Assembly: GCF_988242995.1 (NCBI RefSeq)
Contig: NZ_OZ547043.1
Strand: one strand, 5' to 3'
Length of the DNA stretch: 64,000 bases
In this document: positions 58,001-61,000 of the stretch, in pieces
Layout of the letters: the number at the start of each line of letters is the position of its first letter
Position numbering within the stretch: the stretch's first letter is position 1
Made by a program: the position numbers

Positions 58001-61000
58001 TACAGATGATGCCTACGCTTGCTCCACCATCTGTCCTTTCGGCTCCCCAGCGCCGCTGCCAGATCTTGCTGACACTCTTTCAGCCGGGGTTGACCGCCAC
58101 CACGGCAACTTTCAGCGAGCTTAATGGTGTGGATGATGATATTGCCAGTCTTGATATCAGCGAAACAGGACGTGAGATCCTGCGCTATCATCAACTCACA
58201 CTGACTACTGGTTATGACGGTAGCTACCGGGTTGAAGGTACAGTGCTTAACCAACGTTTGTGTTTATTTCACTGGCTACGACGTGGTTTCCGTCTGTGTC
58301 CGTCATTTATTACCAGCCATTTCACCCCCGCCCTGAAGAGTGAACTGAAGCGGCGCGGAATTGCGCGTAACTTTTACGACGATACCAATCTACAAGCGTT
58401 AGTGAATCTCTGCTCCCGACGGCTGCAAAAACGCTTTGAAACGCGCGATATTCATTTCCTGTGTCTGTATCTGCAATATTGTTTGCTGCAACACCACGCT
58501 GGAATTACGCCTCAGTTTAATCCGCTCCAACGTCGCTGGGCGGAATCCTGCCTTGAATTTCAGGTAGCGCAGGAAATTGGACGCCACTGGCAGCGTCGGG
58601 CGCTCCAGCCTGTACCGCCTGATGAGCCACTGTTTATGGCATTACTTTTTTCCATGTTGCGGGTTCCCGATCCACTGCGGGATGCGCATCAGCGGGACAG
58701 ACAACTGCGTAAGTCTATCAAACGTCTGGTAAACCACTTTCGTGAGCTGGGAAATGTTCGTTTTTATGATGAACAGGGGTTGTGCGATCAGCTTTATACC
58801 CACCTCGCCCAGGCGTTAAATCGCAGTTTGTTTGCCATCGGTATTGATAACACCCTGCCGGAAGAGTTCGCCCGCCTGTATCCACGCCTGGTGCGCACCA
58901 CCCGCGCGGCGCTGGCCGGATTTGAAAGTGAATACGGCGTCCATCTTTCTGATGAGGAAAGCGGTCTGGTCGCGGTGATTTTCGGTGCCTGGCTAATGCA
59001 GGAAAACGACCTGCATGAGAAACAGATTATTCTACTGACCGGGAATGATAGCGAGCGAGAAGCGCAGATTGAGCAGCAGCTACGCGAACTAACGTTACTG
59101 CCGCTCAACATTAAACATATGTCGGTAAAGGTATTTTTGCAGACAGGCGCTCCGCGCGGCGCGGCACTGATTATTGCGCCTTATACCATGCCGTTACCGC
59201 TCTTTTCACCACCGCTGATCTATACGGACTTGACGCTGACAACACATCAACAGGAGCAGATCCGCAAAATGCTCGAATCAGCATGAGGGAACAACTTTCG
59301 GGCGCAAAAACATTGCCGGAAGCGCCACCAGCGCCATCACCCAGAACACGCCGTGTCCCAGATATTGATACAGGAAACCGGCGAAAACGGTCATGATCGC
59401 AATACTGCCGCCCATCGCGACGGCAGAGTAAACCGCCTGTAAACGGATGACTTCGCTACCCTGGCGAGCGGCAATATAGCGCATGGCGGCCAGGTGGCAG
59501 ACCGTGAAGGTGCCACAATGCAGAATTTGCACCACTATCAACCACGGCAACGCCGTAGTTACTCCCATAATGCCCCAGCGCACTACGCCGCAAATCGCTG
59601 AGATCAACAGCATATCGCGTGCACTACAACGGCGGAAAAGTTTATTACTCAGCGCAAAGATAATGACTTCCGCCACCACGCCCAGCGACCACAAATAGCC
59701 CACCGCCGAGGCCGAGTAGCCAGCAGCCTGCCAGTAAATGGCGCTAAAACCGTAATAGGCCGCATGCGCCCCCTGCAATAAACAAACGCAGGCCAGAAAG
59801 CGCCAGTTCTGGCGAACCAACGCCAACCACGCAGACCAACCGGTGCTCTCCTGCTGGCGGCTTGCCCCTTGTGGCTGAATCGTCGGACGGATGAGAAAGC
59901 CGAGCAGCATGGATGCCACGCCCAACGTCAACAGCGCGAGGATCACCCGATAATCAAACATACTGACCAGTTTGCCCGTCAGCGCCGAGCCAATGACAAA
60001 CGCTACCGAGCCCCACAATCGCACTTTGCCGTAATCAAGCGGGAACTGCTTTTGCCACGTATTCGCCAGTGCATCGGTCAACGGTACCAGCGGTGAGAAA
60101 AAGAGGTTAAAGCCAATCATCACCAGCATCAGCCACGCTACGTGCGCCCCCGCCCAGAAGGCGACAGCAAAGAGAAGTGTCAGCAGTGCCAGCACGCGCA
60201 AGGCGGAAATCAGGCGAGAAGGATCGCTGACGCGGGGCGCGATGAGCAAGCTCCCGAGAAAACGGGCAACCAGACCTGCCCCCAATAACAGGCCGATGGT
60301 TTCTGGCGTTAAACCAATCCCCTTAAGCCAAACGCTCCAGAAAGGTAGAAAAATGCCGTAACTAAAAAAGTATGTGAAATAGCCGAGCGCCAACCAGCGC
60401 GTGGATTGCAAAACCATGAGTCCCTCCCGTCAGGAGGCGTTAGTCTGGGGTTAATCGAATGTTGGTGCAAGTTGAAAAATAAGAATATTCGAGCCTGCTT
60501 CCCGATGTCTGTAACGCCAGTTCACAAGCACTAAAAAACTGCGATCCGCGACGCGTTTTGCAAAAATAATGCGTAATTATGCCGTTACGCTTGCCAAACG
60601 TTCCTGCACAATGGCGATGAAATCGCGTAATGCCGGCTTCATCTCCCCTTTCTTCCACGCCATCAGTAAAGCAATGGAAGGCACATTTCCGGCAATGGGT
60701 CGAAATACCACCTGGCCGGTATTAAAATTATTCATATAACCGGGTATCAAAGTGACGCCCAGCCCCATCCCCACCAGATTCATGGTCACCAGAATATTCG
60801 TTGCCACCTGGACGATATTTGGCTGGCTGTTTTCTTGCGCAAACCACGCTTTAACGATCGGCGCAAGCGAACCGGAATACGCTGGATCAGTACTGACGAA
60901 ATTCACGCCATCCAGTTGCGCGGCAGTGATCTCTTTTTCATGTGCTAAAGGGTGATCAACCGGTAACACCACCACTAATGGTTCGTCAAAAAGCTCCAGA

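What the first reader, a model, noticed from the sequence alone, without database searches (positions are those of the whole stretch)
59278..59286. Convergent csiE and hcaT overlap by 9 nt at their 3' ends
The stop of csiE (plus strand) lies inside the last codons of hcaT (minus strand). With no room for a terminator between them, transcription of one gene must run into the other, allowing convergent-transcription interference or antisense effects between a stationary-phase gene and the hca transporter.
Basis: seen in the sequence. Interest (0 to 1): 0.2.

Follow-up and report, generated by a model that had tools for sequence, protein, structure and literature searches.

The report
Known csiE–hcaT nine-base tail overlap
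Two E. coli genes that face each other, csiE and hcaT, share their last nine bases; this is real, but it is already in the reference annotation, is one of about 75 such cases in E. coli, and has no demonstrated regulatory effect.

Summary
csiE (+, 58006-59286) and hcaT (-, 60417-59278) overlap by 9 nt (TCAGCATGA). Each gene's TGA stop is the antisense of a Ser TCA codon in the other. RefSeq annotates the same overlap in K-12 MG1655, and the junction is present in 5424 of 5426 complete E. coli genomes.

Across 78 Enterobacteriaceae species the pair is almost always spacer-free, but the overlap length drifts. It is -4 in 34 species, -6 in 19, -9 in 8 and 0 in 10. Only two species have a real spacer, in both cases an inserted REP-like element. 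The 9-nt form is therefore one lineage state produced by stop-codon turnover in unconserved C-terminal tails.

No intrinsic terminator lies downstream of either stop. Published Term-seq places the csiE mRNA 3' end 47 nt past its stop, inside hcaT and without a U-tract, seen only at OD 2.0. I infer Rho-dependent termination or 3' processing. The pair is already listed among 165 convergent "excludons" of MG1655 (NAR 2025).

A regulatory consequence is untested, and the circumstantial evidence is against a strong one. hcaT is a validated stable qPCR reference gene, and the published dsRNA clusters in csiE start at internal antisense promoters, not at the junction.

Verdict: ordinary and already known, low interest.

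The parts
58006..59286 (+). csiE coding sequence (426 aa, PRD-domain protein induced in stationary phase); stop TGA at 59284-59286
   Evidence: ORF. Annotated start and end transferred from GF43 and K-12. NCBIfam equivalog NF008597 at 777 bits and Pfam PRD.
59278..60417 (-). hcaT coding sequence (379 aa, MFS transporter); stop TGA is the reverse complement of 59278-59280
   Evidence: ORF. Annotation. NCBIfam NF008346 and TIGR00902, Pfam MFS_1_like.
59278..59286 (.). 9-nt tail-to-tail CDS overlap TCAGCATGA. On the + strand it reads Ser425-Ala426-stop of CsiE. On the - strand it reads Ser378-Cys379-stop of HcaT. The codons are directly antisense to each other.
   Evidence: Fixed in E. coli. Only unconserved terminal residues are involved.
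59287..59333 (+). csiE 3' untranslated extension, antisense to the last codons of hcaT. It ends at the 3' end mapped by Term-seq in MG1655 (2,666,762, which is window 59333).
   Evidence: PMC7815308 Supplementary file 1, sheet LB 2.0. Coordinate transfer checked. There is no U-tract. C/G = 1.42 over 59287-59364.
59297..59334 (+). Two small adjacent hairpins predicted in the csiE 3' extension (59297-59321, and GCGC-CACCA-GCGC at 59322-59334). The mapped 3' end falls in the last arm. This fits an exonuclease-trimmed end but not a canonical intrinsic terminator.
   Evidence: Folding (about -8 to -12.6 kcal/mol locally; the 161-nt region has z = 0.01 against shuffles). The reverse complement is the weak terminator-like hit inside hcaT.
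59268..59285 (-). Weak hairpin across the junction on the hcaT strand (5-bp stem AUGCU / AGCAU, with the hcaT stop codon in the loop). The run UUUUG follows immediately at 59267-59263. It is Escherichia-specific and too weak to count as a terminator.
   Evidence: Minimum-free-energy structure (region z = -0.62, not significant). Absent from the Salmonella and Citrobacter junction sequences.

Best explanation
This is an ordinary, already annotated tail-to-tail overlap at an old convergent gene junction that has no spacer.

Shown:
- csiE and hcaT have sat stop-to-stop through the diversification of Enterobacteriaceae.
- The last one to seven residues of each protein are unconserved.
- The two stop codons wander within a segment of about 15-30 nt, which gives overlaps of 4, 6 or 9 nt, or exact abutment, in different lineages.
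- The Escherichia state is the in-phase form TCA-NNN-TGA, where each stop is the antisense of a Ser codon in the other gene.

It follows directly that every csiE or hcaT transcript must end inside the other gene.

Partly shown: in MG1655 entering stationary phase, the csiE mRNA ends 47 nt past its stop. This end has no hairpin followed by a U-tract.

Inferred:
- Once ribosomes leave at the stop codon, the C-rich untranslated antisense RNA is terminated by Rho somewhat further downstream and trimmed back to small hairpins. hcaT transcripts probably end the same way inside csiE.
- The resulting complementary 3' ends (at least 56 nt) make the pair a formal 'convergent excludon'.
- With two weakly expressed genes the regulatory effect is probably small or nil.
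For: Overlap and annotation. Fixation in E. coli.

Comparative series (tallied). Of 78 species loci that carry both genes, 64 overlap: -4 in 34, -6 in 19, -9 in 8, and one each at -17, -22 and -77. Twelve abut (0 to +3 nt). Two have spacers (+38, +89) made of a REP-like insert. The phase between the two genes changes among lineages. In L004 a 3-nt TAA insertion turns -9 into 0.

Tail residues are unconserved. CsiE ends LE, LES, LESA, LESG or LESD. HcaT varies after RPKV.

No intrinsic terminator. The consensus scan and my hairpin-plus-T-tract scan find none on the + strand before 60648. On the - strand they find only weak candidates at 59117 and 57691. Folding around the junction is no better than shuffled sequence (z = 0.01 and -0.62). 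Rfam finds nothing.

Mapped csiE 3' end: 2,666,762 (+), average 1664 reads, classed 'primary, antisense', present only in the LB OD 2.0 sheet.

C>G composition of the csiE extension: 1.42 in the first 78 nt and up to 2.31 further on.

General background: Rho-terminated 3' ends are trimmed to stem-loops, and Rho needs more than 50 nt of untranslated RNA (text of PMC7815308).

Ordinariness: 75 convergent CDS overlaps in E. coli and 165 convergent excludons that include this pair.
Against: - No bicyclomycin or Rho-depletion result for this site was found. The Rho-region table of PMC7815308 has no entry here, but it was made at OD 0.5, when csiE is not induced.
- A 3' end only 47 nt past the stop is closer than Rho usually acts, so it must be a processed end, or it has another origin (RNase cleavage, or a polymerase roadblock or collision).
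- No hcaT 3' end has been mapped in the data I could read.
- The persistence of a spacer-free junction in 76 of 78 species could mean that the arrangement is selected, which the neutral-drift account does not require.
- The hcaT extension is not C-rich at first (C/G 0.58 in the first 78 nt).
Confidence: 0.75

Rival explanations
1. Functional convergent excludon. The obligatory 3' overlap is used for regulation. When csiE is induced (sigma-S, cAMP-CRP, stationary phase), its transcription into hcaT lowers hcaT expression through polymerase collision or RNase III cleavage of the duplex, or the reverse happens. The spacer-free junction is kept by selection for this reason.
For: - The pair is in the MG1655 'excludome', meaning overlap in at least 50% of 58 RNA-seq sets.
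- The csiE 3' end is mapped inside hcaT.
- The junction lacks a spacer in 76 of 78 species, even though the flanking genes yfhR and hcaR/hcaE come and go.
Against: - No gene-specific test exists in any paper I found.
- ExcludonFinder's criterion (coverage above 50% of the gene mean up to overlapping boundaries) is met almost automatically when the CDSs themselves overlap. This is my inference from the method text.
- hcaT was selected from 240 microarray sets and validated as an invariant reference gene.
- The p19 dsRNA clusters listed for csiE lie at its 5' half, bounded by internal antisense start sites, and none is listed for hcaT. The stored tables are truncated, so this is not conclusive.
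- The length and phase of the overlap are not conserved.
- Both genes are weakly expressed, so collisions in a shared zone of about 100-400 bp should be rare. This is my rough inference.
Confidence: 0.12
2. Terminators embedded in the coding ends. The small hairpins at 59297-59334 act as a non-canonical, factor-independent terminator for csiE, and the junction hairpin at 59285-59268 followed by UUUUG acts as a weak one for hcaT. Each gene would then carry the other's terminator in its last codons.
For: - The mapped csiE 3' end coincides with the 3' arm of a predicted GCGC-CACCA-GCGC hairpin.
- On the - strand, a 5-bp hairpin is followed by UUUUG immediately after the hcaT stop.
- TransTermHP predicted overlapping terminators for 146 of the 165 E. 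coli convergent excludons. It is not stated whether this pair is among them.
Against: - No U-tract follows the csiE hairpins (the sequence after the end is CCATCACCCA).
- The stems are 4-7 bp and weak. Local stability is only about one SD better than the rest of antisense hcaT (mean -5.3, SD 2.7 kcal/mol).
- The surrounding regions fold no better than shuffles.
- The consensus scan found no site in the right place.
- The junction hairpin is absent outside Escherichia.
Confidence: 0.12
3. Annotation artefact: one of the two ORFs really ends earlier or is not a gene, so there is no true overlap.
For: Nothing found beyond the general fact that some annotated overlaps are mispredictions.
Against: - A 3' end is set by the stop codon, not by a prediction choice.
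- Both proteins match curated equivalog models along their full length.
- CsiE homologues in 14 other species align right to the C-terminus.
- Both ORFs are intact in 78 species.
Confidence: 0.01

Closest known systems
Convergent (tail-to-tail) overlapping gene pairs of bacteria, created by stop-codon loss or shift
   Same: Two real genes on opposite strands share their 3' ends. The overlap is short and confined to unconserved terminal codons. Its length changes between relatives through stop-codon turnover and small indels. E. coli has about 75 such pairs (PMC4161906).
   Different: Nothing essential differs. The Escherichia state is the in-phase 9-nt form. The commonest state in the family is the 4-nt form with interlocked stops (CTAA, TTAA, TTAG), seen in 34 of 78 species.
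Convergent excludons as catalogued for E. coli MG1655 by ExcludonFinder (NAR 2025, PMC12288877)
   Same: The pair is explicitly listed in that catalogue, and one transcript end is mapped inside the opposing gene.
   Different: The defining outcome of an excludon, mutually exclusive expression, has not been shown for this pair. Here the overlap is forced by CDS overlap rather than by long 3' UTRs.
Rho-dependent 3' ends that are trimmed back to a protective stem-loop (Dar & Sorek 2018, PMC6061677, as summarised in PMC7815308)
   Same: The 3' end has no U-tract, sits at a small hairpin, and lies in untranslated C>G RNA that is antisense to a gene.
   Different: Dependence on Rho has not been tested at this site. 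The end lies only 47 nt from the stop.
Bidirectional intrinsic terminators between convergent genes
   Same: The gene geometry is the same (convergent pair with close ends).
   Different: There is no spacer and no hairpin flanked by A- and U-tracts. The defining feature was tested and is absent.

Membership tests
Convergent overlapping CDS pair | Both partners are genuine protein-coding genes on opposite strands | tested here: met
   NCBIfam equivalogs: CsiE 777 bits (cut-off 304), HcaT 624 bits (cut-off 259). Pfam PRD and MFS_1_like. Both ORFs are intact in 78 species.
Convergent overlapping CDS pair | The 3' ends, stop codons included, share nucleotides | tested here: met
   59278-59286 is shared. 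RefSeq annotation is identical in GF43 and K-12.
Convergent excludon | Transcripts from the two strands overlap | tested here: met
   From published data only. The csiE 3' end at MG1655 2,666,762 lies inside hcaT. The pair is listed in the ExcludonFinder table. No hcaT 3' end was found.
Convergent excludon | Opposing or mutually exclusive expression of the two genes | not testable with these tools
   No paired expression data were accessible. Indirectly against it, hcaT is used as an invariant reference gene.
Convergent excludon | Double-stranded RNA or RNase III products from the overlap region | tested here: inconclusive
   The p19 tables list clusters in the 5' half of csiE next to internal antisense start sites. 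None is listed at the junction or for hcaT, but the stored files are truncated.
Intrinsic (Rho-independent) terminator, uni- or bidirectional | GC-rich stem-loop followed directly by a U-tract, placed downstream of the stop codon | tested here: not met
   Nothing in the correct position in the consensus scan or in my energy-based scan. Folds are no better than shuffles. No U-tract at the mapped csiE end.
Rho-dependent terminator | Untranslated, C-rich and G-poor RNA downstream of the stop | tested here: met
   csiE extension: C/G is 1.42, 1.10, 0.78 and 2.31 in successive 78-nt windows. hcaT extension is weaker: 0.58, 1.00, 1.06 and 1.35. Composition alone is only suggestive.
Rho-dependent terminator | Read-through when Rho is inhibited (bicyclomycin) | not testable with these tools
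   No entry for this locus in the Rho-region table of PMC7815308. That table was made at OD 0.5, when csiE is off. The supplements of PMC6061677 are not held.

The most novel reading that the evidence does not exclude
The spacer-free convergent junction, kept in 76 of 78 Enterobacteriaceae species while the neighbouring genes (yfhR, hcaR-hcaE) come and go, might be maintained by selection. On this reading csiE (a PRD-domain protein of unknown function) and 'hcaT' (an MFS transporter whose link to the hca pathway is only positional, and present in a minority of species) form a functional unit. The obligatory antisense 3' overlap would tune the transporter on entry into stationary phase.
Probability: 0.08. 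Interest if true: 0.4.

Novelty: already known. Interest (0 to 1): 0.1.

Why it matters
It matters little. The overlap is part of the standard E. coli annotation, its transcript overlap has been catalogued, and the csiE 3' end is already mapped.

Practical points:
- Deleting or tagging the 3' end of either gene alters the other. The original Keio csiE primer in fact truncates hcaT (PMC9431181).
- RT-qPCR users who take hcaT as a reference should place amplicons away from its 3' end, or use strand-specific priming, in stationary-phase samples, where csiE antisense RNA covers the last ~56 nt.

The comparative series is a clean small example of stop-codon drift at a compact convergent junction. 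It also suggests that hcaT is historically the neighbour of csiE rather than a member of the hca cluster.

Tried and rejected
- **Intrinsic terminators.** I ran a consensus scan, my own hairpin-plus-T-tract energy scan over more than 1 kb downstream of each stop, and folded both strands across the junction. Nothing convincing appeared. The only hairpin followed by a T-run near the junction on the - strand (59332-59315) lies upstream of the hcaT stop, so it cannot be hcaT's own terminator.
- **Known RNA families.** Rfam at a permissive E-value over 57800-60800 gave only a chance snoRNA hit (18 bits against a gathering score of 90).
- **Misannotation.** Rejected.
- **Gene-specific transcript data.** The supplements of ExcludonFinder, Dar & Sorek 2018 and Conway 2014 are not held. 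Lybecker 2014 and Thomason 2015 are not held at all. As a result I could not get the measured overlap length, the long-read confirmation flag (bold type is lost in Table 1), an hcaT 3' end, or bicyclomycin data.
- **Literature on a link between the genes.** A search for hcaT plus Rho-dependent returned only papers that use hcaT as a reference gene.
- **Genome-wide count of convergent overlaps.** I considered counting these from the K-12 annotation myself. It would have needed more than 90 calls, so I used the published count instead.

Full report
**Observation**

The + strand around the junction reads ...atg ctc gaa TCA gca TGA ggg.... The six-frame ORF list gives csiE ending at 59286 (stop TGA at 59284-59286). 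It gives hcaT on the - strand from 60417 down to 59278, with its stop as the reverse complement of TCA 59278-59280.

The codons are directly antisense. On the + strand the nine bases read Ser425-Ala426-stop of CsiE. On the - strand they read Ser378-Cys379-stop of HcaT. Each TGA stop is thus the antisense of a TCA serine codon in the other gene.

**Identity and annotation**

The window is E. coli. An 801-nt piece around the junction matches 5424 of 5426 complete E. coli genomes, always with csiE and hcaT annotated under it. RefSeq annotates the same 9-nt overlap in strain GF43 and in K-12 MG1655, where csiE is 2665435-2666715 and hcaT is 2666707-2667846.

Both products match curated equivalog models over their full length: CsiE NF008597 at 777 bits and HcaT NF008346 at 624 bits. 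Pfam finds PRD in CsiE and MFS_1_like in HcaT.

The 81 nt centred on the junction occur ungapped in 5424 genomes and are identical in 3597. Two variant strains keep the overlap. A strain with a deletion inside the hca region also keeps the junction.

**How unusual it is**

It is not unusual. [quoted passage not shown] In the part of the window that is collinear with the annotated GF43 genome, the other two convergent junctions have spacers of only 31 and 38 nt.

**Evolution of the junction**

I collected CsiE homologues, aligned 15 of them, and used the alignment to fetch csiE loci from one genome per species (80 loci). For each locus I located the stop of csiE and the stop of the HcaT homologue downstream (tallied).

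Of the 80 loci, 78 carry hcaT convergent to csiE. One exception is a contig that ends just after csiE. The other is a Buttiauxella MAG with no hcaT within 3.5 kb.

The distances between the two stops in the 78 loci are:

| Distance (nt) | Species | Which |
|---|---|---|
| -4 | 34 | CTAA, TTAA or TTAG, with the two stops interlocked: Kosakonia, Leclercia, Phytobacter, Cedecea, Kluyvera, Atlantibacter, Siccibacter and others |
| -6 | 19 | TCATAA or TCATGA: the Citrobacter freundii complex, Salmonella enterica subsp. arizonae and diarizonae, Lelliottia |
| -9 | 8 | E. albertii, E. whittamii, another Escherichia, the C. amalonaticus group, Pseudenterobacter, Intestinirhabdus |
| 0 | 10 | The Enterobacter cloacae complex, and an E. 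ruysiae-like strain where a 3-nt TAA insertion precedes the TCA |
| +2, +3 | 1 each | |
| -17, -22, -77 | 1 each | |
| +38, +89 | 1 each | Cedecea sulfonylureivorans and Dryocola; the spacer looks like an inserted REP-type palindromic element |

The reading-frame relation between the two genes differs among these states. The residues involved are the unconserved tails. CsiE ends LE, LES, LESA, LESG or LESD after a conserved ...IR.(M/I)LE. HcaT varies in length and sequence after a conserved RPKV.

I conclude that what is old and stable is the absence of a spacer. The 9-nt overlap is one lineage-specific state of stop-codon drift.

**Where transcripts end**

With no spacer, any terminator must lie inside the opposing gene. 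A consensus scan finds no intrinsic terminator in a useful position. My own scan for a hairpin of -6 kcal/mol or better followed by a T-rich tract finds nothing on the + strand between the csiE stop and 60648, which is beyond the hcaT start. On the - strand below the hcaT stop it finds only weak candidates, at 59117 and 57691. Folding 160-170 nt across the junction on either strand is no better than shuffled sequence (z = 0.01 and -0.62). Rfam has nothing here.

Published Term-seq resolves one side. Supplementary file 1 of Adams et al. 2021 (PMC7815308) lists one curated 3' end at MG1655 2,666,762 on the + strand. It has an average of 1664 reads and is classed 'primary (csiE), antisense (hcaT)'. 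The row lies in the LB OD 2.0 sheet only, which fits the stationary-phase induction of csiE. I checked that the printed string spans -50 to +10 around the end and that it starts at window 59283, so the end corresponds to window 59333. That is 47 nt past the csiE stop and 56 nt into the hcaT coding sequence.

No U-tract precedes or follows this end. It falls in the 3' arm of a small GCGC-CACCA-GCGC hairpin (59322-59334), which sits next to another small hairpin (59297-59321). Their local stability is only about one standard deviation better than the average along antisense hcaT. The csiE extension is C-rich relative to G (C/G 1.42 in the first 78 nt, up to 2.31 further on).

The same paper summarises that Rho needs more than about 50 nt of untranslated RNA and that Rho-terminated transcripts are trimmed back by exonucleases. 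My inference is therefore Rho-dependent termination further inside hcaT followed by trimming, at perhaps even odds. The alternatives are processing and a weak embedded terminator.

No hcaT 3' end is listed in that dataset. Its Rho-region table has no entry here, but it was made at OD 0.5, when csiE is off.

**Is there regulation?**

The pair is already listed among the 165 convergent 'excludons' of MG1655. These are defined by RNA-seq coverage boundaries that overlap in at least half of 58 data sets (PMC12288877). That criterion is met almost automatically when the coding sequences themselves overlap (my inference from the method description). The paper gives no gene-specific test, and its supplements are not held.

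Three points argue against a strong effect.
- hcaT was picked from 240 microarray sets and validated as an invariant RT-qPCR reference gene (PMC3110127), and it is used as such (PMC10656529).
- The p19-captured dsRNA tables of Huang et al. 2020 list two cluster rows in csiE, at U00096.2 positions 2663548-2663955 and 2663459-2664122. Both are in the 5' half of the gene. Their upper boundaries lie 2 and 34 nt from antisense start sites given in the same rows (2663957 and 2664156, - strand). That points to internal antisense promoters rather than hcaT read-through. No row names hcaT, though the stored tables are truncated.
- Both genes are weakly expressed, so head-on polymerase encounters in a shared zone of a few hundred bases should be rare (rough inference, not computed from data).

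**Side result on gene neighbourhood**

Among the 80 species loci from the genome scan (E. coli itself not counted), hcaR and hcaE lie next to hcaT in only six: one other Escherichia, one Citrobacter, three Pseudocitrobacter and Kluyvera. They are absent within the ~2.3 kb available beyond hcaT in E. albertii, the E. ruysiae-like strain, E. whittamii, Salmonella and most other genera. yfhR, upstream of csiE, is also patchy. The constant unit is csiE plus hcaT.

The K-12 record itself calls HcaT a 'putative' 3-phenylpropionate transporter.

**Practical consequence already in the literature**

The original Keio csiE deletion primer lies too far downstream and truncates hcaT. Both the wrong and a corrected mutant are in the collection (PMC9431181).

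**Verdict**

- The structural half of the interpretation (each transcript must run into the other gene) is correct and documented for csiE.
- The regulatory half is untested, and the circumstantial evidence is against a large effect.
- The feature is already annotated and catalogued, and it belongs to a common class. Interest is low.

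Noticed in passing
Loci L003-L082, relative to window 59278-62964: The csiE-hcaT pair is constant across 78 Enterobacteriaceae species. hcaR and hcaE sit beside hcaT in only six of the 80 other species loci: one other Escherichia, one Citrobacter, three Pseudocitrobacter and Kluyvera. HcaE in those species is 93-100% identical to the window protein, while CsiE is only 57-85% identical. This suggests that the hca catabolic cluster is a mobile or patchy addition next to an older csiE/hcaT unit.
   Followed up: partly
Window about 58004-58701 (inside csiE, - strand): Published p19 dsRNA clusters cover the 5' half of csiE. They end 2 and 34 nt from antisense transcription start sites listed in the same table rows (U00096.2 2663957 and 2664156, which I transferred to window 58502 and 58701; a third site is at 58124). 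csiE therefore seems to have internal antisense promoters independent of hcaT. My consensus promoter scan did not flag them.
   Followed up: partly
L056 4737-4825 (Dryocola boscaweniae) and L057 4737-4774 (Cedecea sulfonylureivorans): These are the only two species with a real spacer between the stops (+89 and +38 nt). The spacer carries a GC-rich palindromic insert resembling REP elements (for example cgtagggcggataagcgcaagcgccatccgcc). The resemblance was judged by eye and not tested.
   Followed up: no
L004 3628-3633 and L065 4762-4838: In the E. ruysiae-like strain E69, a 3-nt TAA insertion before the TCA shortens CsiE by two residues and turns the 9-nt overlap into exact abutment. In Kosakonia cowanii the csiE ORF runs 60 nt longer than in other species, giving a 77-nt overlap. 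The cause could be stop loss, a frameshift or an assembly error.
   Followed up: no
Window 60577-60642 (-): K-12 annotates iroK (b4706), a 21-codon ORF that is the in-frame C-terminal end of hcaR. The window encodes the identical peptide MKPALRDFIAIVQERLASVTA.
   Followed up: no
Window 49121-49191: The window has about 70 nt that are absent from strain GF43. They lie inside an ERIC-like repeat (…agccccaggagcatagataacta…) in the iscX-pepB spacer. The ERIC assignment is from memory of the consensus and was not tested.
   Followed up: no
Window 1-12079, against GF43: The window is collinear with GF43 only from 12080 onward, at about 98% identity. GF43 carries a prophage beyond guaA (integrase, RecT, replication protein P). 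The window instead continues directly into the core purM-purN-ppk-ppx-pdeF region, as most E. coli genomes do.
   Followed up: partly
Window 57985-58005: The mechanical csiE ORF starts 21 nt upstream of the annotated start (433 aa against 426 aa). Homologues in other species align from the annotated MM(P/S)TL start, so the annotated start is the better supported one.
   Followed up: partly
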